A DNA stretch of 64,000 nucleotides from an uncultured Rickettsiales bacterium (GCA_964654855.1 CAZZJS010000008.1:4220-68219), one strand, 5' to 3'. Shown: positions 7,477 through 32,558, counted from the first letter of the stretch. Made by a program: numbers and translations. The notes: generated from the letters alone by a model not told the origin.

Positions 7477-7560
7477 CGTAACACCTTATCGTAACAGTTA
7501 AACAAAACTGCTATCAAACAAGGCTATTAATATATAAATATCAGCATATTACGAAGAAAA

Positions 7561-7607
7561 TGGTGGAGGATACAGGAGTCGAACCTGCGACCTCTTGAAT
7601 GCAAATC
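7561..7607 (-). repeat. att direct repeat (copy 3) = 3'-terminal 47 nt of tRNA-Ala
   Basis: TGGTGGAGGATACAGGAGTCGAACCTGCGACCTCTTGAATGCAAATC is identical to 32483-32529. Confidence 0.92.
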
Positions 7608-7724
7608 TTAATTTATATAAATACCCATAAATCACTGTAGGTATATTAGAAGATATTTATCAATGGCTTAAACCCATATATTTTGTTCTTGTGGTATCTA
7701 TAGAGGTGTGCGAAGTTCTATGTG

Positions 7725-7746
7725 TTGGTGCCTATTTGGTGCCTAT
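7725..7746 (+). promoter_or_regulatory. perfect 11-bp tandem direct repeat (TTGGTGCCTAT x2); candidate integrase arm-type or regulatory site
   Basis: TTGGTGCCTATTTGGTGCCTAT lies just upstream of the int B start codon (7759). The 19-nt core GGTGCCTATTTGGTGCCTA recurs at 17438-17456, at the other end of island B. Confidence 0.45.
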
Positions 7747-7758
7747 AATGGAGATAAA

Positions 7759-8925
7759 ATGTCAAATACAGTGAATATCACTAAGCGCTTTGTGGATAGC
7801 AAAGGGGCTGAACCGAAGGATCAAACCTATTGGGATAGTGCTATCCGAGGCTTTGGATTGAAGGTAACTCCGAAGGGGCGAAAAGTCTATTTGTTCAAAT
7901 ATCGCAATATGGCTAAAACTCAGCGCAAAGCTACGTTGGGAGTGCATGGCAATATCACATGTGAGCAAGCGCGTAAAATCGCGCAACAATGGTCGCATGA
8001 GGTATCACAGGGTAATGACCCCGCTGGCAGAAAACAGATGATAGGCGAGTCCCCTACGATTGCTGAATTATGTGATCGATACCTAAATCAATATGCCAAA
8101 CACTACAAAAAAGAGAGCAGTGTTGAATTTGATAGAATTCAGATTGAGAAGCGCATTAAGCCATCAATAGGCAATTTGAAGATAGCAACGATAAACCAAA
8201 ATGATATTACGCGCTTACACCATCAAATGCGTGAAACACCTACCCAAGCGAATAGGGTTTTGGCTGTTCTCTCCAAAATGTTCAATTTGGCCGAGAAATG
8301 GGGTTTGCGCCCCGATATGACGAATCCGGTACGAAACATTGACAAATACCCCGAAAAAGCGCGTGAGCGATTCTTATCGCAAAAAGAGGCGCAACGATTG
8401 CTTGCAGTGCTGGATGAAGAGGAGGAAATGGGGATTGAATCGATTTATGTTATTTCTCTCATCCGTTTGTTAATTTTTACGGGTGCGCGATTGCGAGAGA
8501 TTATGCATGCAAAATGGGAGTGGCTAGATATGAAAAAAGGCTTTCTGCATTTGCCGGATAGTAAAACGGGCAAAAAAACGATTCAATTATCGGCACCCGC
8601 TATATCAATATTAAAGAAACTCCCAAAGCAGGAGAAAAATCCTTACATCATTTGCGGAAAGGTTGAGGGGATGCCTCTAAACAATGCGCGCAAGCCGTGG
8701 CTGCGTATTCGTCAAAAAGCAGAACTCGAAGATGTGCGCTTGCATGATTTACGGCATAGTTTTGCTGCCTTGGCTATTGAGGCAGGAATACCGCTTTACC
8801 ATGTTGGGAAATTGTTGGGGCATAAACAATCTCGCACAACAGAGCGCTATGCACACTTAGCGGATGACCCAATCAAAGCAGCGGCAGAATTAGTAGGAAA
8901 GCAGTTGGATAGCCTCAATGGATAA
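7759..8925 (+). CDS. int: P4-type tyrosine integrase (DUF4102 arm-binding N-domain)
   Basis: Track ORF starts at GTG 7708. ATG 7759 has a GGAG SD. N-terminus ITKRFVDS...YWDSAIRGFGLKVTPKGRKVYLFKYR. Catalytic ARLREI...HDLRHSFA...LLGH...RYAHL. Confidence 0.9.
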   Translation: MSNTVNITKRFVDSKGAEPKDQTYWDSAIRGFGLKVTPKGRKVYLFKYRNMAKTQRKATLGVHGNITCEQARKIAQQWSHEVSQGNDPAGRKQMIGESPTIAELCDRYLNQYAKHYKKESSVEFDRIQIEKRIKPSIGNLKIATINQNDITRLHHQMRETPTQANRVLAVLSKMFNLAEKWGLRPDMTNPVRNIDKYPEKARERFLSQKEAQRLLAVLDEEEEMGIESIYVISLIRLLIFTGARLREIMHAKWEWLDMKKGFLHLPDSKTGKKTIQLSAPAISILKKLPKQEKNPYIICGKVEGMPLNNARKPWLRIRQKAELEDVRLHDLRHSFAALAIEAGIPLYHVGKLLGHKQSRTTERYAHLADDPIKAAAELVGKQLDSLNG

Positions 8926-9826
8926 ATCTGCTTCTTCAGCACTAATAAAGATCATTATGGCGACGACTCAATCGCTGGTGAAAGATGAAAATTCTCACCA
9001 ATCTTATTTTGACATGAGAAAGCAAATAATTCCCTATTTCTGTAATCTCAATGATGAAAAAAAATTGGAAGCTATTAAACTGCTTGAGGCGGAGTTAGGA
9101 GGAAAAGATATTTTGCGTCTGCTTGTGCCAGATCAATATATCGCCAATCTCCTTGCCGTATTAAATGCTCATTATATTTCAGCCTCTAATGGTGTTTCTC
9201 TTGCAAATCTGATTGAGAATCTTGATTCATACCTGCTACCCCAACAGGGGAGCCTACAATCAAAAGCGCGAAAATTGCTATTAGGGTTTATAGCGACCCA
9301 GTTAAGAGAAAATGATGCAACACTAAATGGTGCATATCTTATTTTAGGGGATATGTTCAATACTAGCGAAAGTGATGTTAAGCGGGGCTATAAAGAGTAT
9401 ATTGAAAGCGACCTCCACCGTAATGATCATGCGTTTCAATACCATTTATTGCTGATTTCATTTTGTATGCTTGAATGTGCTAGAGAAAATTGGCGATTGT
9501 CAGAATTAGAGCTTTCAAGCGAGCCATCTTCCAATAAACGGGAAAAGTTAAAAAAAGCCTACGGTGCCTATGATAAATGGCGAATGAATACGATGATAAG
9601 TAATCGTGATGAAGCGCGTGAAATGCTGCTCTCTGACGAGCCGTTAGTTGCCAAATTTATGCGACCGGAATTTGTAGATTTGCTTAATACGAAGCAAGCA
9701 GATTTCACGAATGAAGAAATTATCGCTATTTTAATGTTGCGTATATTTCAAATTGAAGATGATTCACCTATCAATTTGCGTTCAGCATTTTCATTAGATG
9801 AACCTGTGTCAAAGTCTTTGGCCTAG
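8918..9826 (+). CDS. hypothetical protein (302 aa)
   Basis: ORF overlaps the int B stop by 8 nt (ATGGATAA). Predicted mostly helical. No recognisable motifs. Confidence 0.55.
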   Translation: MDKSASSALIKIIMATTQSLVKDENSHQSYFDMRKQIIPYFCNLNDEKKLEAIKLLEAELGGKDILRLLVPDQYIANLLAVLNAHYISASNGVSLANLIENLDSYLLPQQGSLQSKARKLLLGFIATQLRENDATLNGAYLILGDMFNTSESDVKRGYKEYIESDLHRNDHAFQYHLLLISFCMLECARENWRLSELELSSEPSSNKREKLKKAYGAYDKWRMNTMISNRDEAREMLLSDEPLVAKFMRPEFVDLLNTKQADFTNEEIIAILMLRIFQIEDDSPINLRSAFSLDEPVSKSLA

Positions 9827-9940
9827 GTTCAAAGTTTTTTGCTCACCTAGCCAAAAGGTTTGTTCTCCCAGTATTTTAGCATTGTTGGAAGGCGATAAGC
9901 GTCTCCACAAATGTTGAAATCAATAATTGGGGAAAGAACC

Positions 9941-10156
9941 ATGCAGAAAAAATATTATTCACCGAAAGAATTATCGGAACTGTGGGGCGTGTCGGAAAAT
10001 ACGCTTCGCAAATGGCGCTGGGAGGGGAAAGGGCCAAAATTTGTCAAATTAGGTGCGCGGGTGGCATATCGTGCGGTCGATATTGACACTTATTCGGAGC
10101 AAAACCTTCATTCATCTACCACCTTAGCGATGGAGGAGGATCATGCCTCATTATAA
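9941..10156 (+). CDS. AlpA/excisionase-family HTH DNA-binding protein
   Basis: YYSPKELSELWGVSENTLRKWRWEGKGPKFVKLGARVAYRAVDIDTY fits the HTH_17/AlpA pattern. ATG 9941 is preferred over the track start 9911. Confidence 0.75.
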   Translation: MQKKYYSPKELSELWGVSENTLRKWRWEGKGPKFVKLGARVAYRAVDIDTYSEQNLHSSTTLAMEEDHASL

Positions 10157-10460
10157 GCTAAATTTTGATGCAATAAACGAGAAAGCGCTACAGCACAGTT
10201 TTGCCATATTGCGGCGTTGGTTGCCGGATGGAAAGATTGCATGCGGAGAATATATTGCGCGTAATCCCAAACGAGCAGATCGCAAGGCCGGATCGTTTAA
10301 GATCAACCTCACTAGCGGAAAGTGGGCAGATTTTGCAACGGGAGATAAAGGCTCAGGCTTTATCTCATTGGCATCCTATCTTCATAATCTTGAAACTTAT
10401 GAGGCGGCAAAGCAATTAGCGCAGATGCTTGGGATGGTGGGGGTGAGTCATGACCAATAA
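10143..10460 (+). CDS. primase N-terminal (zinc-ribbon-like) domain protein, separate ORF
   Basis: RRWLPDGKIACGEYIARNPKRADRKAGSFKINLTSGKWADFATGDKGSGFISLASYL resembles the N-terminal region of P4-alpha-like primases. Overlaps alpA by 14 nt and the Toprim ORF by 11 nt. Confidence 0.5.
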   Translation: MPHYKLNFDAINEKALQHSFAILRRWLPDGKIACGEYIARNPKRADRKAGSFKINLTSGKWADFATGDKGSGFISLASYLHNLETYEAAKQLAQMLGMVGVSHDQ

Positions 10461-12936
10461 TGTCTCTTTTGCTCCACTTGATGAATCTGAAAAGGAGAAT
10501 CAAGCGCCTAAATCAAAACGAGATACGCTGTGGGAGCCTATCTTTCCAGTTCAAGAGGGTGTTATTGAGCCTTCAGGGATGAAACACCCTAAGCATAATG
10601 TAGCAGTATCACAAGATTGGCCATATTATGATGAGCAAGGCCGATTGCTCGGTTATAATTTACGGTTTGATTTTGAGGTGGATGGCGAGTCTGAGAAAGA
10701 TTATAGGCCTTATACCTATTGGAAAAACACTCAAACGGGCGAATGCCAATGGAAATTTAAGGGGTTCCCAAAGCCAAGGCCGCTTTATGGTTTGGATTGG
10801 TTGGCATCGAATCCGCACGCTACCGTTATTATTTGCGAAGGTGAAAAGTCAGCCCTCGCACTACACAAGGTTGTTGGTGGCGATTATGTTGCGGTTACGA
10901 CCGGCGGCGAGAGTTCAGTCAAATATGCTAATCTCATGCCCCTCAAAGATCGAAAAATTATCATCTGGCCGGATAAGGATAAAGCAGGTTCGAATTACGC
11001 TAAGCAACTATATCAACGGCTGATGGGTGAATCCATTGCCGGTGACGTTTCAATTATTGGGCCACCAACCGATAAGCCGGAAAAATGGGATGCAGCAGAT
11101 GCGATAGAATATGGCTGGGGAAAAACAGAATGCCTAGCCCTTATAGGGAATGCACAAACAGTTAAAATTCCCTATAGGGAAAAGATTCCCTATAGGGTTT
11201 GCGAGAAGGGTTTGTATTTCTCACCACCAGCCAAAGAGGATGGTACCCCCAAGGATGAAATATGGTTATCTGACCCTATAGAGGTGTTAGCACAAACTCG
11301 TGATGAAAAAGGGCATGAATGGGGGCTATTACTTCGCTGGAAAGATGCCGATCATCGTACTCATGAGGAGGCCTTTTCCAAAAAGCATTTTGCGGCATCG
11401 GATGGTAAAGCACTGATTGAGCATTTGCTCGATCGAGGGTTAAATATTTCACCTAATCGCAATAATCGGCAAAACTTCCTCGCATATCTTCAAACAGTCA
11501 AACCACCTCGTATGGCAACTAGCGTGACCAGAGTTGGTTGGAAGGATAGCTTTTATATGCTGCATGATGGGTGCATCCCTAAGAATGAAGAAATTTATCT
11601 GCAAAACGCTGCGATTGAGCATGGCCGTTTCAAGCCAAACGGTACGTTGCCGCAGTGGAGAGAAGAGATAGGTCGCTATATCGCCGGTAATTCTCGGCTT
11701 GTGCTATTTGCATGTTCGGCATTTGCTGCGCCTTTACTCAAAATAGCAGATGAAAAAGAAGGTGGTGGTTTTCATCTTTACGGCGGCACCTCGGTCGGTA
11801 AAAGTACCGCCTTAGAAGTCGCGGCTAGTATTTGGGGTGATCATGATTACATTCACCAATGGCGTAATACGGATAATGCCTTTGAGGCTGTTGCACTTGC
11901 TCATAATGACGGTTTGTTATGCTTAGATGAATTACACCAAGTCGATCCAAAAGCCCTAGATAAAATCATCTACATGATCGCCAATGGCCGCCCTAAAGGT
12001 CGGATGCGTAAAGATACTACGCTCAAACAGGCAGAAAACTGGCTAGTATTGCCCTTATCGGTCGGTGAGGTGACGGTCGAACAACGGCTTGCTGAAGGTC
12101 AGATCAAAGCGCATGGTGGTATGGAAAGCCGTTTTGCGACCATTGCTGCCGATGCCGGAAAGGGTTATGGTCTCTATGATAATATCCATCATTTTACCTC
12201 AGGCGAACAATTAAGCGATCATCTCAAACAAGCTAGTAAGCGCTATTATGGTGCTCCCATTCGTACCTTTATCGAAAAACTAGTACCCATATCGCATGAG
12301 GATATCAAAAGAGAGCTATTGCAGCACCGTGACGCATGGGTGGAGCGTTATGTCAGCTTAGATATCAAAGGGGGTCAAATAGGCCGTGTAGCGAAGCGCT
12401 TTGGCTTGCTCTCTTATGCCGGAAAACTCGCCAATCAGTTTGAGATATTAGGTTGCGGTCAAGATGCGATAGATGAGGGGCTGAGTGTTTGTTTCAGTGC
12501 ATGGCTTTCTGAGCGTGGTACGCTTGGTGATGTTGATATTTATCATGCGATTGAGCGCATCAAAGCATGGTTTAGTAAATATGCTCATAACTCGTTCATT
12601 ACTCTTGGCAGTGAAGAGTTAGATCAAGTTCCTCGTACCATGCGAGAACAGGCAGGTTTTAGCCGTTACATCGACAATCAAAAGCAATTCATTGTGACGG
12701 ATAGTTTCTTCAAAGGTGAGTTTGCAAAAGGCGTGAATGAGAAATCTCTCGCACGTGAACTCGTCAATCAAGGCTATTTATTGCAAGATGGCCAGCAAAA
12801 TACAAAAGTACCGGTGCGTATTCCAGCCCCTCATAGCAATAATAAACCACAGCGCCGGTACATCTTCACACAAAATATAATCGAAAATGAATGCTGTAAC
12901 AGCGTAACAACTGTAACAGAGGAGGAGGTGATATGA
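10450..12936 (+). CDS. Toprim primase / DUF927-type helicase-like replication protein (P4 alpha-like)
   Basis: 828 aa. Toprim VIICEGEKSALAL...IIIWPDKDKAG. P-loop GGTSVGKST with Walker B-like LLCLDELH. Confidence 0.85.
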   Translation: MTNNVSFAPLDESEKENQAPKSKRDTLWEPIFPVQEGVIEPSGMKHPKHNVAVSQDWPYYDEQGRLLGYNLRFDFEVDGESEKDYRPYTYWKNTQTGECQWKFKGFPKPRPLYGLDWLASNPHATVIICEGEKSALALHKVVGGDYVAVTTGGESSVKYANLMPLKDRKIIIWPDKDKAGSNYAKQLYQRLMGESIAGDVSIIGPPTDKPEKWDAADAIEYGWGKTECLALIGNAQTVKIPYREKIPYRVCEKGLYFSPPAKEDGTPKDEIWLSDPIEVLAQTRDEKGHEWGLLLRWKDADHRTHEEAFSKKHFAASDGKALIEHLLDRGLNISPNRNNRQNFLAYLQTVKPPRMATSVTRVGWKDSFYMLHDGCIPKNEEIYLQNAAIEHGRFKPNGTLPQWREEIGRYIAGNSRLVLFACSAFAAPLLKIADEKEGGGFHLYGGTSVGKSTALEVAASIWGDHDYIHQWRNTDNAFEAVALAHNDGLLCLDELHQVDPKALDKIIYMIANGRPKGRMRKDTTLKQAENWLVLPLSVGEVTVEQRLAEGQIKAHGGMESRFATIAADAGKGYGLYDNIHHFTSGEQLSDHLKQASKRYYGAPIRTFIEKLVPISHEDIKRELLQHRDAWVERYVSLDIKGGQIGRVAKRFGLLSYAGKLANQFEILGCGQDAIDEGLSVCFSAWLSERGTLGDVDIYHAIERIKAWFSKYAHNSFITLGSEELDQVPRTMREQAGFSRYIDNQKQFIVTDSFFKGEFAKGVNEKSLARELVNQGYLLQDGQQNTKVPVRIPAPHSNNKPQRRYIFTQNIIENECCNSVTTVTEEEVI

Positions 12937-13112
12937 ATATCAATCAGTTAGAGTGAATCACTTCGTTACAGAATCGTGGTTGGAATCTGTAACCATTGTA
13001 ACTGTTACACTCGTTACGAAATGGAATTAGCAGCCTGTAACGAGTGAAAATAAAATAAGCTATTGATATACAATAACTCAAAAAGCTTGTTACAGCCGTT
13101 ACATGGTTACAA
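12894..13112. repeat. iteron cluster, putative replication origin of island B
   Basis: There are 12 copies of GTAAC/GTTAC, mostly as (C)TGTAACR / YGTTACA: 12896, 12904, 12913, 12965, 12989, 12998, 13004, 13013, 13037, 13089, 13098, 13106. All lie within about 215 bp, where chance expectation is below 1. The cluster starts in the 3' end of the primase gene and is followed by an AT-rich stretch. Confidence 0.6.
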
Positions 13113-13196
13113 AGATTAAAACTTAAATGAATAACGAAATAAAAGTTATTTAACGGTAATGGATGAAATGGCGGAAAAGTGAGTTTTTATTTCGTC

Positions 13197-13240
13197 ATTT
13201 CCCTTAGGGAAAAACAGTTTTTGCACTCCCTAAGGGAAAT
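13197..13240. repeat. perfect 14-bp inverted repeat (ATTTCCCTTAGGGA ... TCCCTAAGGGAAAT), 16-nt spacer
   Basis: Arms at 13197-13210 and 13227-13240 are exact reverse complements. No T-run follows, so a protein-binding or ori-associated role is likelier than a terminator. Confidence 0.5.
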
Positions 13241-13336
13241 CCTGCGATAGTGAGGTTTCGCTATATATAGAAATCAAAACAGTAAAAAGAACAGTTTAAA
13301 ACTGTTTTTAAACAGAAAAATAAAAGGAATTGAACA

Positions 13337-13570
13337 ATGATACGATTAGTTGCAATGGCGATGGGAGTGGGTTTTGCTGCTATCGCCGCTAAAATACTCG
13401 AAACGGAAAAAGAAGCTCCTATTTTGGATGAACCTGCCAATATGGAAAACGATGGTGAAATGAAAGACGAAAACGCCTATCAGCGCGGAGATCGTTTTTT
13501 CTGCCCCGATACAGGAATAGAGCTACAAGTTCGCGCTGTCGGGGGCCGCCCACGTAAGAATGAAGTTTGA
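13337..13570 (+). CDS. small hypothetical protein with N-terminal TM helix (77 aa)
   Basis: AAGGA SD lies 8 nt upstream. MIRLVAMAMGVGFAAIAAKIL is hydrophobic and the middle is acidic. Confidence 0.4.
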   Translation: MIRLVAMAMGVGFAAIAAKILETEKEAPILDEPANMENDGEMKDENAYQRGDRFFCPDTGIELQVRAVGGRPRKNEV

Positions 13571-13639
13571 CGCAATAGATTAATCAGCGTTACACTTTTA
13601 CCGAAAGGTTTTCTTCTGGCCAAGAGCGGACATTCAAGC

Positions 13640-14434
13640 TTAATTATTTTGTAATTTATTGCATCCTTCGGGATAGGTTTTTCCTACCTCCTTAAATATT
13701 ACATCCTCTGCTGTATGAACTTTAAGTACTTTCGCTGTTTCTAGGCAATCTACAATGGCCAAGTCAGTGCCTTCAATACTCACTGTGACTCCCATACTGG
13801 CAGCCCATGCTTTGGAAGCTGTACTAGCCACAGAATGGGCATTCCAACCATCTCGAAGCTGAGTCTGTACTTCTACGATGCGCGGCCTTCCAATGCTTTC
13901 CAACTTATTTGCAATGATATTATCTGATAACCAAAAATATGCAGATTCTCCACCCCAGCTTCTAAGCAAAGGTTTAACACCACAATGGTTAGCTGATTTT
14001 GGGGTTGTAACCGTCCAAAATCGATTTGATCTGCTATCTGCTTGTTTTTGGAATGGACTTTTTTGCAAGATAATATCAACTTCATTTTTTGTTAAAAGTT
14101 GTTTGCTCTTGAGGGTCTTTAGGCGTTGGTGCAAGCTATCAAGCGTGGATGCAGTTATGCGATCTTTCATAGACAATACCTCATCATCCAAGAGTCTTGT
14201 ATAATGCCACACACGTATTGATCTCTCTAAAAACATGGGGGTTATAATATGTTCTAATGCTTCGTTGTAAGCTGCACTGTATTGATTTGGTTTTAAGCTT
14301 TCATATGGATCACTATTTAAGTGCTCATCCATTAAGCGCTTTTCTTCACTAAAATAATTAGTAATAAGGGCGGAACAACTAACCAATAAGCTCCGAAGCT
14401 CATTATCAAATGTTTCTGGGTTCCAGCAATCCAT
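13640..14434 (-). CDS. hypothetical protein (264 aa from ATG 14434; 266 aa if TTG 14440), downstream partner of the two-gene cargo operon
   Basis: ATG 14434-14432 shares its A with the TGA stop (14436-14434) of the upstream ORF, giving TGATG. No recognisable domain. Confidence 0.7.
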   Translation of the reverse strand: MDCWNPETFDNELRSLLVSCSALITNYFSEEKRLMDEHLNSDPYESLKPNQYSAAYNEALEHIITPMFLERSIRVWHYTRLLDDEVLSMKDRITASTLDSLHQRLKTLKSKQLLTKNEVDIILQKSPFQKQADSRSNRFWTVTTPKSANHCGVKPLLRSWGGESAYFWLSDNIIANKLESIGRPRIVEVQTQLRDGWNAHSVASTASKAWAASMGVTVSIEGTDLAIVDCLETAKVLKVHTAEDVIFKEVGKTYPEGCNKLQNN

Positions 14435-16143
14435 CAACAACCCTCAAACTGACTCTGAACAATCTCTAATTCATCGCATATAATTTCACAAATGTGGCGA
14501 AAGTGAGAAGCATATGTTTCATGCTCACTCAATGCATCCATTGATAATTGCTCAGCATCACTTTTTGCGCTGTGCCCTTTCGCTTTGGTTCGAATAAGTT
14601 GGGCTGTACGCAATCCATTTAGTTTCAGTGGCTCTTCTATCTCCTCATTCGAGTTAATGACTTTCTCAAGAAGAGATAGGCTACCTTCTTGTTTATCGAA
14701 AGTGATACTCCTTTCCCTTAACCGTTCACGTAAATCCTTTACTACAAACCCCTCATGAATAAGTTGTGTAAGAGCTAGAAATGACTCCGCCCACTCATCT
14801 CGGCTTGAGGTTAGCGGAACTGTAGCGTTATCAATTAGCCGGTCATCTTTAAGTTTCCACCAAGAATGTTTATTTCTATTCCAATCACGAGAAAAATTCT
14901 TAATTTTTTCTAAAGGGTCAACGAATGATACAAACTGCCCTTCAAAATCATTTACAAATGCTCTTTTTGAAATAGAAGCTTTTGGTTCCTCATTGTATGA
15001 GAGCCAATGCAATAATTCCGATTCAGGCAACCTACGTAAATAACACATATACGCGAATACTTGTCCTGCCTCATTCACATCAAATGCCTCAAGATACCAT
15101 GCTGCCCTGCAATGGATATCTCTCTCCCCTATGGTATATTTATCCTTATCAGCTTTATATTTAAGCAATACTTCTGGCTTGAAAAATGCAGGTGAAAGCT
15201 CAAATGGAAGGTCGTTATTTTCGGTTTCAAAATAATTCACTGTTTCTTTAGGGTCTGTTGATATTTTCCTTACCCGATGGTTTCTCCAGTCATAAGCAAT
15301 AAACTCAAAATGATTCGTATCTTTCTCTCCATAAAAACCACCCTTCATATCAGAGAAGATTAATGACTTAGATCTCCTTGGCCGAACAATCTGAACCCCT
15401 CTGGTATAGGCAGCATCACCATTTATTTTTTGTCTGTAAAACAGTGTACCATTAATATCGAGAATAGCTTCATCACCACCTCCCCAGCTCGAAAAGTTAG
15501 ACCTATCAAGCAATGTAAAATCAAAAAGTCTTACCAAGACTTGGTTTGAAGCAGCAAGATATGAATCGAGAGACGAACGATCAAATGTAACTAGTGAAAT
15601 TTCATTTATCGAATTTCGTTTTGTAATTGATACACATGGCTTAAGGTCTCCTTGCTCATCAAACTTACAATAACCGCGCTGCTCAGGTCGCCAGTGTAAA
15701 CCTTCAAGGTGAGCGTACTCCTGAGAAAGTTCAAAGTAATCTCGATCTTCACCACTCCAACCTTCAAAAGTTCTTCCATAAATGAGATGAGAGCCTTTAG
15801 CTAAAATTTTTGAACCAGTTCCACTTGCTCCACGTTCAACCCATATGTCATCTCTTCCACCGCCCCAAACATAGCTTGCAGCAGATACATATGGATTTAC
15901 ACTCCACCCCAACAAGTCATCTTTGTCTAATGGGTTCATAAATTCTTCAGGAACTACCATGCCATAAACAAAGCTGTACTCAGCTGCTCCATAGACCACT
16001 ATTTCTTGAGATTTTGTATTATTTTCAAGAAACCCAAGATGTGCTTCGGCTTGAACCCACTCCGCCATAGTTTTCTTTTCTGACGGCAGCTTATCAAGAT
16101 TCACAAGCTTCTCAGCAATTTTTTTATGTTCAAAACTTGGCAT
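14434..16143 (-). CDS. hypothetical protein (569 aa), upstream partner of the two-gene cargo operon
   Basis: Long ORF with ATG start. Duplicated W-G-G-G motifs at residues 93-96 and 220-223. C-terminal helical region contains RTKAKGH (Rx5H, 14572-14592). No P-loop or other diagnostic motif. Confidence 0.75.
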   Translation of the reverse strand: MPSFEHKKIAEKLVNLDKLPSEKKTMAEWVQAEAHLGFLENNTKSQEIVVYGAAEYSFVYGMVVPEEFMNPLDKDDLLGWSVNPYVSAASYVWGGGRDDIWVERGASGTGSKILAKGSHLIYGRTFEGWSGEDRDYFELSQEYAHLEGLHWRPEQRGYCKFDEQGDLKPCVSITKRNSINEISLVTFDRSSLDSYLAASNQVLVRLFDFTLLDRSNFSSWGGGDEAILDINGTLFYRQKINGDAAYTRGVQIVRPRRSKSLIFSDMKGGFYGEKDTNHFEFIAYDWRNHRVRKISTDPKETVNYFETENNDLPFELSPAFFKPEVLLKYKADKDKYTIGERDIHCRAAWYLEAFDVNEAGQVFAYMCYLRRLPESELLHWLSYNEEPKASISKRAFVNDFEGQFVSFVDPLEKIKNFSRDWNRNKHSWWKLKDDRLIDNATVPLTSSRDEWAESFLALTQLIHEGFVVKDLRERLRERSITFDKQEGSLSLLEKVINSNEEIEEPLKLNGLRTAQLIRTKAKGHSAKSDAEQLSMDALSEHETYASHFRHICEIICDELEIVQSQFEGC

Positions 16144-16388
16144 GATTAATAACGCTATGTCCTTATATTAATCCGAATTAAAAGGTCCGCTTTGGATCGA
16201 AAGAAGTCACATTACAACTTTATATATACATAAAGGAGCTGCGCCTAATAATATTCTTTGAGCAACTTTTTCACTGAAAAATTAGAGGGGATTAAATAAT
16301 CATATTGAGAGGTGAGTTCAATTCAAATTAAGGATGGAAATAATTTCTCAGGGGCCGCAGTCCTTTCTTTTAAGGCTGCGATAATTTG

Positions 16389-16429
16389 AAAAAAGGGAGC
16401 GCTTCTAGTGACAGCACTCCCCCTTTTTT
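16389..16429 (-). terminator. rho-independent terminator downstream of the lipoprotein gene (A-run and T-run on both sides)
   Basis: AAAAAAGGGAGCGC-ttctagtgaca-GCACTCCCCCTTTTTT. An 8-bp stem with one mismatch, flanked by T-runs on both strands. Confidence 0.6.
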
Positions 16430-16451
16430 AAGGTTAATCTAATTAGCTAAA

Positions 16452-16949
16452 CTAACGTCTATTTCTAGGGTTGTTATTTGGGTTAGCTGGTTTGTCTTTT
16501 TCTGCAATAATTCTTTCATATTGGAGCTTTTCATCTAACCATTGCTGGCGCTCTGCATCAGATTTCCAATTCTTTTTCTCTAGAAAGACCTTTGTTTGTT
16601 TTGGGTATTCTTGCGCTGCACCAGATGCTGCATCAACAATAACGCCAATACCACCACCAAGGATAATATTTCCTAGGGTGGCACCCTGAAATTTCTCTTC
16701 AACGACTGTCACACCATCATTATACCCAGCTTTCTCACATTTTACTGTAAGAGGGCCATCTCCTTTATTAACCATCGCGCTATCAGGAGTGGACTTGATA
16801 TAATAACTTCCGCCTGCGGAATCCTTCAAGTCGCAGCTTGAGCCGATTGCATACGGAGTCTCAACAGTGATTTGTTGAGTTGTACCAGTAGTGATAGTTG
16901 CACAGGCGCTAAGCCCTAGTACAGCGGGTAAGAGAATTAGTTTTTTCAT
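16452..16949 (-). CDS. lipoprotein with glycine-zipper segment
   Basis: Signal peptide plus lipobox MKKLILLPAVLGLSAC. Contains GNIILGGGIGVIVDAASGA and a basic, Asn/Pro-rich tail. Confidence 0.75.
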   Translation of the reverse strand: MKKLILLPAVLGLSACATITTGTTQQITVETPYAIGSSCDLKDSAGGSYYIKSTPDSAMVNKGDGPLTVKCEKAGYNDGVTVVEEKFQGATLGNIILGGGIGVIVDAASGAAQEYPKQTKVFLEKKNWKSDAERQQWLDEKLQYERIIAEKDKPANPNNNPRNRR

Positions 16950-16995
16950 GCTTCAGTGTTCCTTATGGGTTGTAATTAGTACGTTATTTTTAGGT

Positions 16996-17133
16996 TTAAT
17001 GGCAGTGGTATGGCTGAGAGCCTGCATGGCAGCATTTCCCTTGAGGGGAGTCCTTACGGCAGCCCCCGCCGTGTGCTAAAGCAGTTCCGATAGTGAATGT
17101 TAGAAGTATGGCTACAGTTATGATTAACCTCAT
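16996..17133 (-). CDS. small secreted Cys/His-rich protein (45 aa), YHYH-motif-like
   Basis: Absent from the track because it is under 60 aa. MRLIITVAILLTFTIGTALAHGGGCRKDSPQGKCCHAGSQPYHCH*. Has a signal-like N-terminus and ends in YHCH. Confidence 0.4.
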   Translation of the reverse strand: MRLIITVAILLTFTIGTALAHGGGCRKDSPQGKCCHAGSQPYHCH

Positions 17134-17346
17134 TTTACGCCGCCTTTTATTATATATAATTTATCAAAGTGTTACTCTAACGATAGGCTAAGAATAGTCA
17201 ATTAAGCTAATTATCATTCCTGTTAAAGATGTAGAAGGGTAGCCCTATGAAGGTTAAGTAAACATAGATCATCGCCAGAAAGGTAGCACAAGGGTGACGC
17301 CAATTAAATTCTAGATTTATGAAATCGCGGGAAGCCGCTTTAGTGT

Positions 17347-17391
17347 CGGTTGCGGGAGTAGGATTTAAACCTACGACCTTCAGGTTATGAG
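17347..17391 (-). pseudogene. tRNA-Met(CAT) 3'-half fragment (anticodon loop to acceptor end); att-type remnant
   Basis: Reverse complement reads CTCATAACCTGAAGGTCGTAGGTTTAAATCCTACTCCCGCAACCG. This gives a CAT anticodon loop, variable loop, T-arm GTAGG/CCTAC and the acceptor 3' strand. No 5' half is present. Confidence 0.6.
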
Positions 17392-17436
17392 GTTCATCAA
17401 ATGATGTATATACCTAGAATGGTGCGGACATTCTAC

Positions 17437-17457
17437 GGGTGCCTATTTGGTGCCTAG
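17437..17457 (+). promoter_or_regulatory. second copy of the GGTGCCTAT tandem repeat motif
   Basis: GGGTGCCTATTTGGTGCCTAG. Nineteen nt are identical to 7727-7745. Lies 47 nt left of att copy 17504-17549, in the terminal arm of island B. Confidence 0.45.
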
Positions 17458-17503
17458 AATTTTCTAGAAGGCTGGCTATAACTATGTAAGTCACTGAAAA
17501 ATA

Positions 17504-17549
17504 TGGTGGAGGATACAGGAGTCGAACCTGCGACCTCTTGAATGCAAAT
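17504..17549 (-). repeat. att direct repeat (copy 2) = 3'-terminal 46 nt of tRNA-Ala
   Basis: TGGTGGAGGATACAGGAGTCGAACCTGCGACCTCTTGAATGCAAAT is identical to 32483-32528. Confidence 0.92.
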
Positions 17550-17741
17550 TAAGTAACTCGTGATATCGCCACGTTACTACAAATCATCCTAGGTTTCCAT
17601 AAGTTACTAATTTATATAAATTAGAAAGGATTTTCTCATGACAATTACTGCTACACAATACGCTCTGTTTCTCTCTATTTCCCTTATTATTCCCTTATTA
17701 ATTTGGCTGACTTCTTTAATAAGAACTGCTTTAATAAGATT

Positions 17742-18923
17742 ATGCCCAAAGCCAAACTTACTAAGCGTTACATCGAATCGTTACCCTTCATGGAGAAAGG
17801 CCAGCAGCTCTACTGGGACACAGAAATGAATGGCTTTGGCGTATGTGTTGGCAAAAAGTCAAAAAGCTATTTGGTGCAACGTGATGTACATGGTCGTGGA
17901 GTGCGCTATACGATCGGCAAGCACGGAATATTTACTACTGAACAAGCACGTAAGCAGGCACAGCAGCTTCTAACACAAATGGCGCAGGGTATTAACCCCA
18001 ATCAAATTCGTGAAGAAAAGCGCATCAAAGGCATGACGTTGGCTGATCTGTGGAAGCAGTATGAAGAAAATGCACGTACACGCCTTACCGCTAATACACT
18101 TTATGTGTATGAGAAGTTCGTCACTATCCAGTTTGCGGATTGGCTAAATAAGCCCGTTGCAGAGCTTACTAAAGAAATGATGGTCAAGCGCCACCGCAAG
18201 ATTACCGAAGAATCAAGCAAGTCGATGGCAAATAGCTCCATGCATACGTTACGCGCACTCTATAATTACGCTATGATAGAGAATGAGAGCTTAACTAACC
18301 CTGTTGACGTACTTTCGCAAAAGAAACTTTGGCATGCGACAACAAGGCGACAATCGGTTATTAAAGAGCATCAGTTGGCTGCTTGGTATGCTGCGGTGAT
18401 GAATCTGCAAAACACAACGATTCGTGATGCGCTGCGTTTTCTGCTATTTACAGGTTTACGCAAGATGGAAGCGCTAACGCTCACATGGGATCAGGTGGAT
18501 TTAGAAGCTAAGAGTTTCAAGGTGCTAATCACCAAGAATAAACAACCGCTAGAGTTACCACTTAGCGACTTTCTATACGACATGCTGCTGGTACGTTCTG
18601 AGCATAAAGGCGACTCACCCTATGTCTTCCCCGGTGGTGGAGCAAAAGGTCATTTAGTAGAGCCGAAAAAAGCAGTGAAAGCGGTTATTCAAGAATCAGG
18701 TGTGGATTTTATGATTCATGATTTACGCCGCACTTTCATTACCACGGCAGAACGGCTTGATATATCGGCCTATGCATTGAAGCGGCTCGTGAATCACAAG
18801 AACAGTAATGATGTGACAGCGGGTTATATCGTGATGGATGTAGAGCGTTTGCGTAAACCTATGGAAGAAATTGCATTGTATTTCTGCGAACAGGTCAAAA
18901 GTGCCAAAGAGATAATTGTATGA
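17742..18923 (+). CDS. int: P4-type tyrosine integrase (DUF4102 arm-binding N-domain)
   Basis: Track ORF starts at TTG 17703; ATG 17742 (MPKAKLTKRYIESLP) is preferred. YWDTEMNGFGVCVGKKSKSYLVQ. Catalytic GLRKMEA...HDLRRTF...LVNH...AGYIV. Confidence 0.9.
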   Translation: MPKAKLTKRYIESLPFMEKGQQLYWDTEMNGFGVCVGKKSKSYLVQRDVHGRGVRYTIGKHGIFTTEQARKQAQQLLTQMAQGINPNQIREEKRIKGMTLADLWKQYEENARTRLTANTLYVYEKFVTIQFADWLNKPVAELTKEMMVKRHRKITEESSKSMANSSMHTLRALYNYAMIENESLTNPVDVLSQKKLWHATTRRQSVIKEHQLAAWYAAVMNLQNTTIRDALRFLLFTGLRKMEALTLTWDQVDLEAKSFKVLITKNKQPLELPLSDFLYDMLLVRSEHKGDSPYVFPGGGAKGHLVEPKKAVKAVIQESGVDFMIHDLRRTFITTAERLDISAYALKRLVNHKNSNDVTAGYIVMDVERLRKPMEEIALYFCEQVKSAKEIIV

Positions 18924-32482: not shown

Positions 32483-32558
32483 TGGTGGAGGATACAGGAG
32501 TCGAACCTGCGACCTCTTGAATGCAAATCAAGCGCTCTACCAACTGAGCTAATCCCCC
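32483..32558 (-). tRNA. tRNA-Ala (anticodon UGC), CCA encoded
   Basis: Reverse complement GGGGGATTAGCTCAGTTGGTAGAGCGCTTGATTTGCATTCAAGAGGTCGCAGGTTCGACTCCTGTATCCTCCACCA. Cloverleaf folds, G3:U70 identity pair present, anticodon loop TTTGCAT. Confidence 0.95.

What the first reader, a model, noticed from the sequence alone, without database searches (positions are those of the whole stretch)
13640..16143. Unassignable, translationally coupled two-gene operon in the cargo slot of a P4/PICI-like island: candidate novel defence system
Seen in the sequence: two minus-strand ORFs of 569 aa and 264 aa are joined by a TGATG stop/start overlap (14432-14436). A hairpin with T-run (16389-16429) insulates them from the upstream lipoprotein gene. 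A plausible sigma70 promoter precedes them (TTGAAT-16 nt-TATGAT on minus, 16299-16326). They follow the int-alpA-primase-ori backbone of island B. By eye I cannot place either protein in a known family. There is no P-loop, HTH, or classic nuclease, TIR or SIR2 motif. The large protein has duplicated WGGG motifs (residues 93-96 and 220-223). Its helical C-terminus contains LRTAQLIRTKAKGH, an Rx5H pattern reminiscent of the HEPN Rx4-6H RNase motif, but this match is weak. Established knowledge: variable cargo positions of P4-like satellites and PICI-type islands are enriched for anti-phage systems. Inference: this pair is a candidate undescribed defence or abortive-infection module.
Basis: partly seen in the sequence, partly recalled or inferred. 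Interest (0 to 1): 0.8.

Follow-up and report, generated by a model that had tools for sequence, protein, structure and literature searches.

The report
Uncharacterised defence-island gene pair
Two overlapping genes carried as cargo of a small integrated mobile island belong to two protein families that match no described family. Both families turn up across bacteria beside restriction enzymes, toxin-antitoxin genes and other anti-phage genes, so they are good but unproven candidates for new phage-defence genes, and they are only sometimes found as a pair.

Summary
A 569-aa and a 264-aa ORF on the minus strand share a TGATG stop/start overlap. They sit at the far end of a 9.9-kb int–AlpA–primase island bounded by 54-nt tRNA-Ala repeats.

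Neither protein matches Pfam, NCBIfam, PADLOC, PHROGs or PDB sequences.

**The large protein.**
- It founds a big family of constant length: at least 1,878 clusters at 50% identity, across many phyla.
- About one locus in seven has Type I/IIG restriction-modification genes in the flank. Others lie beside CBASS, toxin-antitoxin genes or integrases, or as GMT-island cargo.
- Two members carry an N-terminal TIR domain.
- Its most conserved polar feature is R518-[S/T/N]-x4-H524 in an all-helical C-terminal domain. This is a HEPN-like motif, but no HEPN profile or fold match was obtained.

**The small protein.**
- Its model is confident (pLDDT 91) but has no significant structural neighbour.
- The weak hits are enriched for ADP-ribosyltransferase folds.

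**The pairing is facultative.**
- 0 of 52 loci with a small-protein relative carry the large gene.
- Most large genes lack the small one.
- The pair recurs in the window's clade. A probable remote version occurs in sphingomonads.

**Verdict:** a credible new defence candidate, centred on the large protein. The mechanism is inferred, not shown.

The parts
14434..16143 (-). Large gene, 569 aa. It founds an undescribed family of constant length (about 555-590 aa).
   Evidence: ORF and translation. At least 1184 homologues and 1878 clusters at 50% identity. No Pfam, PADLOC, NCBIfam, PHROGs or PDB hit.
14572..14592 (-). Codons for R518-T-K-A-K-G-H524, a HEPN-like R-[S/T/N]-x4-H motif in the all-helical C-terminal domain.
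   Evidence: R518 is 99% and H524 is 99% conserved in 328 sequences. The residue after R is S 59%, T 28%, N 11%. Both are invariant in the 22-49%-identity alignment A5. Predicted helices span 410-567.
14944..15243 (-). Codons for residues about 301-400. This is the most conserved segment of the family and has no assigned fold.
   Evidence: Mean top-residue frequency is 0.72 here against about 0.5 elsewhere. 14 of the 21 residues conserved at >=97% lie here. AlphaFold2 pLDDT is below 50 for 300-406.
13640..14434 (-). Small gene, 264 aa. It belongs to a second undescribed family. The model is confident, with weak ADP-ribosyltransferase-like hints.
   Evidence: ORF. 157 homologues. pLDDT 91, pTM 0.87. 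No significant PDB or BFVD neighbour. The weak hits include NatT/RES, XopAI, Tpt1, ADP-ribosyltransferase-domain and PARP proteins.
14432..14436 (-). TGATG stop/start overlap, consistent with translational coupling.
   Evidence: Read directly from the sequence. The same 4-nt overlap occurs in L001, L002 and L144.
16299..16326 (-). Sigma-70-like promoter candidate, TTGAAT-16-TATGAT.
   Evidence: 9 of 12 matches. The number of such sites in the region is not above chance.
16389..16429 (.). GC-rich hairpin flanked by an A-run and a T-run. It is a bidirectional intrinsic terminator between the 165-aa ORF and the pair.
   Evidence: dG -22 kcal/mol, z = -3.99.
16452..16949 (-). 165-aa ORF upstream of the pair, lipoprotein-like and related to a phage family.
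   Evidence: phrog_6823 at E 1.4e-12. Weak N-terminal resemblance to spanin and Cor lipoproteins.
7553..7606 (.). Left island boundary: a 54-nt repeat that is the 3' end of tRNA-Ala.
17496..17549 (.). Right island boundary: a 54-nt repeat, 96% identical to the left copy. The next island starts here.
7708..8925 (+). Tyrosine integrase of the island.
   Evidence: Phage_integrase, Arm-DNA-bind_3 and SAM-like domains.
9911..10156 (+). AlpA-like HTH_17 regulator.
   Evidence: PF12728 at E 1.3e-10.
10450..12936 (+). Primase/helicase-type replication protein (Toprim + DUF927).
   Evidence: PF06048 at E 1.3e-75, plus Toprim.
32483..32558 (-). Intact tRNA-Ala(TGC), the integration target of the tandem islands.
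   Evidence: ARAGORN. A third copy of the 28-nt repeat core starts at 32487.

Best explanation
The cargo slot of a 9.9-kb tRNA-Ala-integrated int-AlpA-primase island holds two genes from two separate, horizontally mobile families typical of defence islands. In this lineage the two genes have been joined into one translationally coupled operon.

**Large protein (569 aa).** This is the core element. It belongs to a widespread family of constant length whose members usually occur without the small gene. I propose it is a self-contained immune protein with two parts:
- a beta-rich N-terminal region and a very conserved central region that sense an infection cue;
- an all-helical C-terminal domain whose invariant R-[S/T/N]-x4-H motif, with conserved E464 and H547, forms a HEPN-type metal-independent RNase site.

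The cue could be loss or inhibition of a neighbouring restriction-modification system. On activation the protein would cut tRNA or mRNA and stop translation, giving abortive infection. This would resemble PrrC and ApeA.

**Small protein (264 aa).** This is a facultative partner. It is an enzyme-like protein with many invariant R, H and E residues and a possible ADP-ribosyltransferase-type NAD-binding strand (W-H-Y-T-R). It may act as a second effector or as a modulator.

**Shown:** the genes, the island, the conservation, the neighbourhoods, the TIR fusion and the facultative pairing.
**Inferred:** the defence role (about 0.7), HEPN RNase chemistry (about 0.3), an ADP-ribosyltransferase-like small protein (about 0.25), and functional dependence between the two (about 0.35).
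For: **Real, constrained genes**
- The large family has at least 1184 homologues and 1878 clusters at 50% identity, nearly all 555-590 aa.
- The small family has 157 homologues.

**Mobile and patchy**
- Hits come from Proteobacteria, Acidobacteriota, Chloroflexi, Nitrospira, Planctomycetes, Verrucomicrobia, spirochaetes and Melainabacteria. Only 133 hits were found among 185,579 species genomes.

**Defence context of the large gene**
- It lies directly behind Type I, Type IIG or DUF1156 methylase genes, with gaps of 3-18 nt.
- 12 of 83 loci have Type I/IIG components in the flank, and 10 of these are on the same strand within 3.5 kb.
- It lies next to CBASS on a P. aeruginosa megaplasmid.
- It is the first cargo gene of a Gamma-Mobile-Trio island. 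The cargo of such islands is rich in defence systems (bioRxiv 10.1101/2023.03.28.534373).
- Other neighbours are toxin-antitoxin genes, RES, Fic, TIR, SMC-like, Schlafen-AlbA and integrase genes.

**TIR fusion:** a TIR_2 domain (E 1.5e-17) is fused to the N-terminus of the module in two 70%-identical proteins from separate contigs.

**Conserved C-terminal motif**
- R518 and H524 are 99% conserved, the residue after R is S, T or N, E464 is 96% and H547 is 95% conserved.
- The motif sits in a predicted all-helical domain.
- This matches the published HEPN description: Rx4-6H with a polar residue after R, a second acidic residue, and at least 16 HEPN clades linked to restriction-modification systems (PMC3710099).

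**Small protein**
- The model is confident.
- Invariant residues are H77, R80, E85, R104, S126, R135, E163 and E188.
- Its neighbours include AbiEii, SIR2 and HD proteins, integrase/AlpA islands and plasmids.
- ADP-ribosyltransferase-fold proteins recur among its weak structural hits.

**Pair linkage**
- The same overlap is found in the window, in L001/L002 and in L144; Microbulbifer (L143) carries the same pair in a sister island, but its small gene is annotated without the overlap.
- The A2 profile picks the four sphingomonad +1 partners as its next-best hits among about 460 neighbour ORFs (E 9e-5 to 2e-3; the next hit is at 0.5).
Against: - No experiment has been done, and no match to any validated defence system was found.
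- HEPN is supported only by a short motif and a helical prediction. No HEPN Pfam model hits any of 45 divergent members even at E<=10. Foldseek against the PDB gives no HEPN hit among the top matches; the best hit is Avs3 at E 0.03.
- The residue after R is mostly S or T rather than the N, D or H typical of HEPN. R518 lies at the end of a helix and H524 follows a glycine.
- The large model is mediocre (pLDDT 68), and its most conserved segment is unmodelled.
- The ADP-ribosyltransferase-like reading of the small protein rests on non-significant hits (E 1-10) and one motif.
- Pairing is absent in most loci of either family. The two genes may therefore be functionally independent neighbours.
- This island contains no restriction-modification system, so a guard role for such a system cannot apply here.
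Confidence: 0.5

Rival explanations
1. The two genes are independent single-gene modules, each a defence or toxin-type gene in its own right. They were stacked in the same cargo slot and have no functional dependence. The 4-nt overlap only reflects compaction in a small island.
For: - 0 of 52 small-family loci carry the large gene.
- Large homologues at 63-70% identity are solo.
- Each family pairs with many other neighbours.
Against: - The pair, with the same overlap, is kept across at least five different genomic contexts while the proteins diverge to 74-87% identity.
- A probable remote small-like partner with the same length and the same overlap follows the large gene in four sphingomonads.
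- Small-like genes lie two genes away in L037 and L043.
- For two families this rare, repeated adjacency is unlikely by chance.
Confidence: 0.3
2. The pair is a toxin-antitoxin-like addiction module that stabilises the island. One protein is a toxin and the other neutralises it. It has no anti-phage role.
For: - The two genes are coupled in one operon on a mobile island.
- Toxin-antitoxin genes are frequent neighbours of both families: TacAT, Phd/YefM, RelE, RES, AbiE and HicB.
Against: - Both proteins usually occur without the other, which an obligate toxin-antitoxin pair would not tolerate.
- Sizes of 569 and 264 aa are atypical, and no DNA-binding antitoxin domain is present.
- The tight linkage to restriction-modification operons and the TIR fusion point to immunity.
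Confidence: 0.08
3. The large protein is an accessory subunit or regulator of restriction-modification systems, for example for target recognition, control or anti-anti-restriction. It would not be an effector, and the R...H motif would bind a ligand or nucleic acid rather than catalyse a reaction. In the island it would be a remnant, or would act on restriction-modification systems encoded elsewhere.
For: - It sits at the 3' end of Type I and Type IIG operons with gaps of 3-18 nt.
- 10 of 83 loci have Type I/IIG components on the same strand within 3.5 kb.
- There is a weak structural hit to the sensor protein Avs3.
- A TIR fusion is typical of an effector attached to a sensor module.
Against: - About 85% of loci have no detectable Type I/IIG component nearby.
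- The restriction-modification types it accompanies are unrelated to each other.
- The window island has no restriction-modification genes.
Confidence: 0.1
4. The genes serve the island's own life cycle, as in P4/PICI-type satellites. They might exploit a helper phage, redirect packaging or control replication, rather than defend the host.
For: - They lie in a satellite-like int-AlpA-primase island, and a sister island in Microbulbifer carries the same pair.
Against: - Most family members lie outside such islands: in chromosomal restriction-modification operons, on plasmids, in a GMT island and on a serine-recombinase element.
- There is no match in 50,697 phage records.
- PHROGs gives no hit.
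Confidence: 0.04

Closest known systems
PrrC / EcoprrI (an anticodon nuclease linked to a restriction-modification system) and other such HEPN clades (Anantharaman et al. 2013, PMC3710099)
   Same: - The protein has a C-terminal helical domain with an invariant Rx4-6H-type motif.
- The gene is often the last gene of a Type I restriction-modification operon.
- The proposed logic is the same: a latent RNase released when the first line of defence fails.
   Different: - There is no ABC-ATPase or P-loop N-domain.
- No HEPN profile or fold match was found.
- Most members, including the window copy, have no adjacent restriction-modification system.
- The N-terminal and central regions are unrelated to anything known.
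ApeA (a single-protein HEPN anti-phage tRNA nuclease activated by a small ligand; bioRxiv 10.64898/2026.01.26.701840)
   Same: The predicted architecture is the same: a single-polypeptide immune protein with a sensing part separate from a HEPN catalytic centre. Both are mobile and reside in defence islands.
   Different: Pfam HEPN_Apea and the PADLOC ApeA models do not hit. Oligomeric state, ligand and RNase activity are unknown here.
TIR-domain immune proteins (Thoeris ThsB, TIR-STING, TIR-NLR type fusions)
   Same: Two family members carry an N-terminal TIR_2 domain fused to the whole 560-aa module. This is the usual effector-plus-sensor layout.
   Different: The window protein has no TIR domain. 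The fusion is rare: 2 of the 120 best hits.
ADP-ribosyltransferase-superfamily toxins used in conflict systems (DarT, RES/NatT/MbcT, Tpt1-like) - for the small protein
   Same: - A strand ending in aromatic-H-aromatic-T-R is followed by a helix.
- Several R and E residues are invariant.
- Proteins of this fold recur among the weak structural hits: NatT twice, XopAI, phage Tpt1, two ADP-ribosyltransferase-domain proteins and a PARP catalytic domain.
   Different: No hit is significant (E 1-10, TM at most 0.23 for those proteins). No Pfam ADP-ribosyltransferase, RES or DarT model hits. The catalytic triad cannot be assigned.
Cargo hotspots of P4-like satellites, PICI-like islands and GMT islands
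   Same: The pair occupies the variable position distal to the integrase in a tRNA-integrated int-AlpA-primase island. A distant large homologue is the first cargo gene of a GMT island.
   Different: The island type was not shown to be a true phage satellite: no capsid-redirection or packaging genes were identified. The N-terminal ~120-130 residues of the synthesized GAPS2-GAPS13 genes show no resemblance by eye to the large protein's N-terminus. GAPS1, the small protein and later regions were not compared.

Membership tests
HEPN superfamily (large protein, C-terminal domain) | All-alpha helical-bundle catalytic domain | tested here: met
   AlphaFold2 predicts residues 410-567 as helices only, with pLDDT mostly 80-93. 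This is a prediction, not a fold match.
HEPN superfamily (large protein, C-terminal domain) | Conserved Rx4-6H motif | tested here: met
   R518-x5-H524 is 99%/99% conserved in 328 sequences and invariant in alignment A5.
HEPN superfamily (large protein, C-terminal domain) | Polar residue (mostly N, D or H) right after the R, and a second conserved acidic residue (Ex3[KR]) | tested here: inconclusive
   The residue after R is S 59%, T 28%, N 11%. E464 is 96% conserved and followed by K/R at +5, which is Ex4[KR] rather than Ex3. The criteria are from PMC3710099.
HEPN superfamily (large protein, C-terminal domain) | Profile or structural similarity to an established HEPN family | tested here: not met
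HEPN superfamily (large protein, C-terminal domain) | Metal-independent RNase activity that depends on the R and the H | not testable with these tools
   Requires biochemistry.
PrrC-type anticodon nuclease linked to a restriction-modification system | N-terminal ABC/P-loop NTPase domain that regulates the nuclease | tested here: not met
   No P-loop or ABC domain.
PrrC-type anticodon nuclease linked to a restriction-modification system | Gene embedded in, or adjacent to, a Type I restriction-modification operon | tested here: inconclusive
   True for 10-12 of 83 family loci. Not true in the window island.
Known or candidate anti-phage systems in PADLOC-DB 2.0 | Match to any of the 5027 system-protein models | tested here: not met
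   Zero hits at E<=10 for both proteins.
ADP-ribosyltransferase superfamily (small protein) | Sequence-profile match to an ADP-ribosyltransferase, RES, DarT or Tpt1 family | tested here: not met
   Pfam, NCBIfam and PDB profiles give nothing.
ADP-ribosyltransferase superfamily (small protein) | Split beta-sheet fold of this superfamily with an NAD-binding H/R on strand 1 and a catalytic E | tested here: inconclusive
   Only non-significant Foldseek hits to proteins of this fold. H77 lies on the first strand, and E163 and E188 are invariant.
Type II toxin-antitoxin pair | The two genes co-occur obligatorily, and one is a small neutralising or DNA-binding protein | tested here: not met
   The families mostly occur apart. 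No HTH, RHH or antitoxin domain is present.
P4-like / PICI-like integrative satellite island (context) | Integrase, AlpA-type regulator and primase-type replication gene, bounded by att repeats at a tRNA | tested here: met
P4-like / PICI-like integrative satellite island (context) | Helper-exploitation genes (capsid-size redirection, packaging, cos/pac) | not tested
   The 302-aa, 105-aa and 77-aa ORFs have no family hits. Satellite status is unproven.

The most novel reading that the evidence does not exclude
The 569-aa protein defines a large, previously unrecognised family of stand-alone bacterial immune proteins. The family would have three notable parts:
- a new sensor architecture, including a highly conserved roughly 100-residue core of unknown fold;
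- a new HEPN-like nuclease domain;
- recurrent attachment behind unrelated restriction-modification systems as a second-line guard, sometimes armed with a TIR domain.

The 264-aa protein would be a new NAD-utilising (ADP-ribosyltransferase-like) effector or modulator that plugs into several different upstream partners: this family, AbiEii and HD proteins.
Probability: 0.25. Interest if true: 0.75.

Novelty: new variant of a known kind. Interest (0 to 1): 0.55.

Why it matters
If the large family is an immune protein, it adds a widespread component to the bacterial defence repertoire: at least 1,878 clusters at 50% identity across many phyla. Current annotation tools (Pfam, NCBIfam, PADLOC) miss it entirely.

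Its repeated placement as the last gene of unrelated restriction-modification operons would give a new, testable case of layered defence. In that model a latent effector backs up restriction, as PrrC does.

The small family is a confident model with no structural neighbour, and it follows several very different upstream genes. It could reveal a reusable effector or regulator module.

Both proteins have clear mutational targets: R518, H524, E464 and H547 in the large protein, and H77, R80, E163 and E188 in the small one.

Tried and rejected
**Family and structure searches that found nothing**
- Pfam, NCBIfam, PADLOC and PHROGs scans of both proteins gave nothing. Pfam on 45 divergent large-family members at E<=10 gave no recurrent family.
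- PDB sequence-profile searches returned only noise.
- Foldseek against the PDB gave nothing for the small model (best E = 4). For the large model the only hit was a weak Avs3 match (E 0.03, about 210 columns, region not reported), which I did not build on.
- Foldseek against viral structures was not significant for the small model.
- Phage genome records have no homologue of either protein.

**Ideas considered and dropped**
- Duplicated WGGG as a signature: rejected, because it is not conserved.
- PD-(D/E)xK nuclease in the N-terminal half, prompted by the Avs3 hit and by GAPS1: rejected for lack of conserved acidic or lysine residues. Only R124 and E138 are conserved there.
- 2H-phosphoesterase reading of the small protein (H-x-T motifs): rejected, because T79 varies and there is no second H-x-T motif.
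- Identity with GAPS2-13 of GMT islands: the N-terminal parts of the synthesized genes show no resemblance by eye. The full sequences were truncated in the held file, so this was not tested rigorously.

**Other negative checks**
- An Rfam scan of the island found no RNA element.
- A literature search for accession numbers of family members found no paper.
Full report
**1. Observation**

The two minus-strand ORFs exist as described.
- The large ORF is 14434-16143 (569 aa, ATG start). The small ORF is 13640-14434 (264 aa from the ATG).
- The stop of the large gene and the start of the small one form TGATG at 14432-14436. A GAGG lies 6 nt upstream of the ATG.
- WGGG occurs at residues 93-96 and 220-223, and LRTAQLIRTKAKGH contains R518 and H524.
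- The hairpin at 16389-16429 is strong (dG -22 kcal/mol, z -4.0). It is flanked by an A-run and a T-run, so it can terminate transcription in both directions.
- The proposed promoter (16326-16299, TTGAAT-16-TATGAT) is found at 9 of 12 matches. Such sites are no more frequent here than in shuffled sequence (11 against 12.8), so it is only plausible.

**2. The island**

- A 54-nt direct repeat lies at 7553-7606 and at 17496-17549 (96% identical).
- Its 28-nt core occurs a third time inside the intact tRNA-Ala(TGC) gene at 32483-32558.
- At least two islands are therefore integrated in tandem at the 3' end of tRNA-Ala.
- The island holding the finding runs from about 7553 to 17549 (9.9 kb). Its gene order is:
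  - integrase (7708-8925);
  - a 302-aa ORF;
  - an AlpA-like HTH_17 gene (9911-10156);
  - a 105-aa ORF;
  - a Toprim+DUF927 primase (10450-12936);
  - a 77-aa ORF;
  - the pair, on the opposite strand;
  - a 165-aa lipoprotein-like ORF.
- Microbulbifer sp. CnH-101-G carries a sister island: int, DUF6387, AlpA, DUF927 primase, then large, small and a 1180-aa ORF.
Whether the island is a true phage satellite was not established.

**3. No known family**

- Pfam, PADLOC and NCBIfam give no hit for the large protein at E<=10. For the small protein the only hit is a 12.6-bit NCBIfam match far below its cut-off.
- PHROGs gives nothing significant.
- Profile searches of PDB sequences give only noise.
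- Scanning 45 divergent members of the large family against Pfam at E<=10 yields no family hit by more than one member.

**4. The large family**

*Size and spread*
- A word-indexed search found at least 1184 homologues, almost all 565-575 aa and all unnamed.
- An exhaustive profile search found 1878 clusters at 50% identity (496 with E<=1e-30), again nearly all 555-590 aa.
- In one-genome-per-species data the family appears in Gamma-, Alpha- and Betaproteobacteria and Deltaproteobacteria-type lineages. It also appears in Acidobacteriota, Nitrospira, Chloroflexi, Planctomycetes, Verrucomicrobia, a spirochaete and a Melainabacterium. Only 133 hits were found in 185,579 species. This is the patchy spread expected for a horizontally moving accessory gene.

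*Conservation over 328 full-length members (28-100% identical to the window protein)*
- The residues conserved at >=97% are R124, G165, G249, P313, F321, V325, Y329, K335, Y336, C345, W349, N357, Q361, L369, P373, E376, W380, N384, W451, R518 and H524.
- R518 and H524 are 99% conserved. The residue after R518 is S (59%), T (28%) or N (11%).
- In the C-terminal domain, E450 (93%), E464 (96%) and H547 (95%) are also conserved.
- The WGGG motifs are not family features.

*Structure*
- The AlphaFold2 model is mediocre (pLDDT 68).
- It shows a beta-rich region from about 45 to 300 and a confident all-helical domain at 410-567.
- Confidence is below 50 for 300-406. Yet this segment is the most conserved of all, with a top-residue frequency of 0.72 against about 0.5 elsewhere. 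This remains unexplained.
- Foldseek against the PDB gave only a weak match to Avs3 (E 0.03).

**5. Neighbourhoods of the large gene**

*Link to restriction-modification genes*
- The gene is often the last gene of a restriction-modification operon:
  - 18 nt after hsdS in L004 and L012;
  - 3 nt after a Type I methylase-specificity fusion (L070);
  - 3 nt after an R-S type protein (L086);
  - 7 nt after a Type IIG enzyme (L031);
  - downstream of another Type IIG enzyme (L066);
  - 12 nt before a DUF1156 methylase (L057).
- By homology to these seeds, 12 of 83 loci have Type I/IIG components in the flank. In 10 they are on the same strand within 3.5 kb.

*Other settings*
- An int-AlpA island with a SmaI restriction-modification system, a TIR protein and an SMC-like ATPase.
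- Between TacAT and Phd toxin-antitoxin genes.
- Beside HEPN_RiboL-PSP and DUF4145 genes.
- Next to CBASS on a P. aeruginosa megaplasmid.
- Near RelE/Phd and RES genes on Rhodococcus pFiD188.
- As cargo of a serine-recombinase element.
- As the first cargo gene after gmtY-gmtZ-gmtX on P. syringae pPma4326F. GMT cargo is reported to be rich in anti-phage systems (bioRxiv 10.1101/2023.03.28.534373).

*Immediate neighbours and exceptions*
- Across 119 immediate neighbours, the recurrent families are Type I specificity subunits, N6 methylases, Eco57I/MmeI-type enzymes, MADS-type models, SEC-C proteins, SMC_N, Fic, Schlafen-AlbA_2, DUF2971, radical SAM and transposases.
- Some loci simply abut housekeeping genes such as uvrA and rpoD.
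- No homologue exists in 50,697 phage records.

**6. A domain fusion**

- P0350 (761 aa) and P0409 (762 aa) are 70% identical and come from different contigs.
- Both carry an N-terminal TIR_2 domain (E 1.5e-17, above Pfam's cut-off) fused to the complete module.
- Their nearest unfused relative is 84% identical over the module.
- TIR domains are immune effectors or signal generators (established knowledge). The fusion is independent evidence that the module works in immunity. It hints that the module can act as the sensing or scaffolding part.

**7. The small family**

*Properties*
- It has 157 homologues, none named.
- The AlphaFold2 model is confident (pLDDT 91, pTM 0.87). It has five strands and many helices.
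- Invariant residues include W76, H77, Y78, R80, E85, R104, S126, R135, E163 and E188. This pattern looks like an enzyme.

*Structural neighbours*
- Foldseek finds no significant neighbour in the PDB (best E = 4) or in viral models (best E 0.23, an uncharacterised protein, TM 0.42/0.51).
- Proteins with an ADP-ribosyltransferase fold recur among the weak hits:
  - NatT, a RES-domain NADase, twice, and XopAI, among nine PDB hits;
  - a phage Tpt1, two ADP-ribosyltransferase-domain proteins and a PARP catalytic domain, among 48 viral hits.
- The invariant strand end W-H-Y-T-R followed by a helix resembles the aromatic-H-x-T NAD-binding motif of the H-Y-E branch of that superfamily. That comparison rests on my own knowledge.
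- This is a lead, not a result.

*Neighbourhoods*
- Accessory and defence-like settings again:
  - an AbiEi-AbiEii-small-403 aa operon with 4-nt and 16-nt overlaps (five loci);
  - a SIR2_2 protein;
  - an HD protein;
  - integrase/AlpA islands;
  - conjugative or large plasmids with SIR2 and PAPS-reductase genes.

**8. Is it a pair?**

*Against an obligate pair*
- Among 80 genome loci with the large gene, a clear small homologue directly follows it only in the Thiodiazotropha-type loci (L001, L002).
- Distant small homologues lie two genes away on the opposite strand in L037 and L043.
- None of 52 loci fetched through the small family (at most 57% identity to the window protein) contains the large gene.
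- Large homologues at 70%, 66%, 65% and 63% identity are solo.

*For a real link*
- The coupled pair recurs in different surroundings:
  - the window;
  - L001 and L002;
  - L144;
  - the Microbulbifer island;
  - two further contigs inferred from shared contig lengths.
- In four sphingomonads a 266-aa protein follows the large gene with the same 4-nt overlap.
  - The small-family profile, run with filters off, picks these four as its next-best hits among about 460 neighbour ORFs (E 9e-5 to 2e-3; the next hit is at 0.5).
  - They align at equivalent positions 57-112, over RIRxxHxTR...E...RL.
  - hhalign gives E 2.5e-4 and probability 43%.

*Conclusion.* Each family is independently mobile, but they associate more often than chance would allow for two such rare families. 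The link is facultative.

**9. Mechanism**

I commit to the following.
- **Defence role.** The large protein is an autonomous immune protein (defence or conflict role about 0.7).
- **Chemistry.**
  - The only invariant polar residues outside the central core are R518 and H524, with E464 and H547 nearby. They lie in an all-helical C-terminal domain.
  - This fits the published definition of HEPN RNases: Rx4-6H, a polar residue after R, a second acidic residue, and frequent linkage to restriction-modification systems as a second line of defence (PMC3710099).
  - I therefore propose a latent HEPN-type RNase. It would be held inactive by the N-terminal and central regions and released by an infection signal.
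  - Where the gene follows a restriction-modification operon, that signal could be failure or inhibition of that system, as for PrrC. ApeA is a single-protein analogue with a separate ligand pocket.
  - Confidence in the HEPN chemistry is only about 0.3, for three reasons:
    - no profile or fold match was obtained;
    - the residue after R is usually S or T;
    - the TIR fusion would equally fit a pure sensor role.
- **Small protein.** It is proposed as a facultative second effector or modulator, possibly NAD-dependent (about 0.25).
- **Rivals** (detailed in the Rival explanations section):
  - two independent stacked modules (0.3);
  - a restriction-modification accessory or sensor without catalysis (0.1);
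  - an addiction module (0.08);
  - an island life-cycle function (0.04).

**10. Novelty and limits**

- Neither family is described in the libraries or the literature searched.
- In concept the locus is a familiar kind: mobile-island cargo, a defence-island resident, possibly an abortive-infection protein of the HEPN type. The protein families, the conserved central core and the small protein's fold are new.
- I therefore rate it a new variant of a known kind.
- Limits:
  - the neighbourhood enrichment has no formal background model;
  - nothing has been tested experimentally.

Noticed in passing
window 7553-7606, 17496-17549, 32483-32558: There are three copies of the 3' end of tRNA-Ala(TGC). 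At least two islands (about 7.55-17.55 kb and 17.55-32.5 kb) are integrated in tandem at this tRNA, and each begins with its own tyrosine integrase (7708-8925 and 17703-18923).
   Followed up: partly
window 3990-7476 (minus strand): A third integrase with a DUF6538 N-terminal domain (5749-7476) overlaps an unassignable 588-aa ORF (3990-5756). This may be the end of yet another element to the left of the island.
   Followed up: no
window 16452-16949 (minus strand): A 165-aa ORF just upstream of the pair matches phage family phrog_6823 (E 1.4e-12). Its N-terminus weakly resembles spanin and Cor lipoprotein signal sequences. It could be a surface-exclusion-type cargo gene.
   Followed up: partly
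window 14944-15243 (large protein residues ~301-400): This is the most conserved segment of the whole family, yet AlphaFold2 cannot model it (pLDDT below 50). No motif or fold could be assigned.
   Followed up: partly
P0350 and P0409 (metagenomic proteins of 761 and 762 aa): A TIR_2 domain is fused to the N-terminus of the complete large-family module in two 70%-identical proteins.
   Followed up: yes
L124, L125, L127, L129, L131 (metagenome and genome loci): A distant clade of the small family (about 35% identity) is the third gene of a tightly overlapping operon: AbiEi-like gene, AbiEii, small protein, then an unassignable 403-aa protein.
   Followed up: partly
L036, L038, L041, L081 (Novosphingobium, Blastomonas and an alphaproteobacterial metagenome-assembled genome (MAG)): A 266-aa protein follows the large gene with the same 4-nt overlap. 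It shares only the RIRxxHxTR...E segment with the small family, so it is a probable remote homologue.
   Followed up: yes
L007 12038-12892 and L147 3448-4281: DUF5677 proteins lie convergent immediately downstream of solo large genes in two unrelated contigs.
   Followed up: no
L017 10326-11306 and L019 1894-2904; L043 11706-13079; L048 11686-14163: Other genes overlap the 3' end of the large gene in different lineages: radical-SAM proteins, a Schlafen-AlbA_2 protein and an 826-aa SEC-C-motif protein. This suggests a variable downstream partner slot.
   Followed up: partly
L143 10878-14417 (Microbulbifer sp. CnH-101-G): An unassignable 1180-aa ORF follows the pair in the sister island. It has no Pfam hit.
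   Followed up: no
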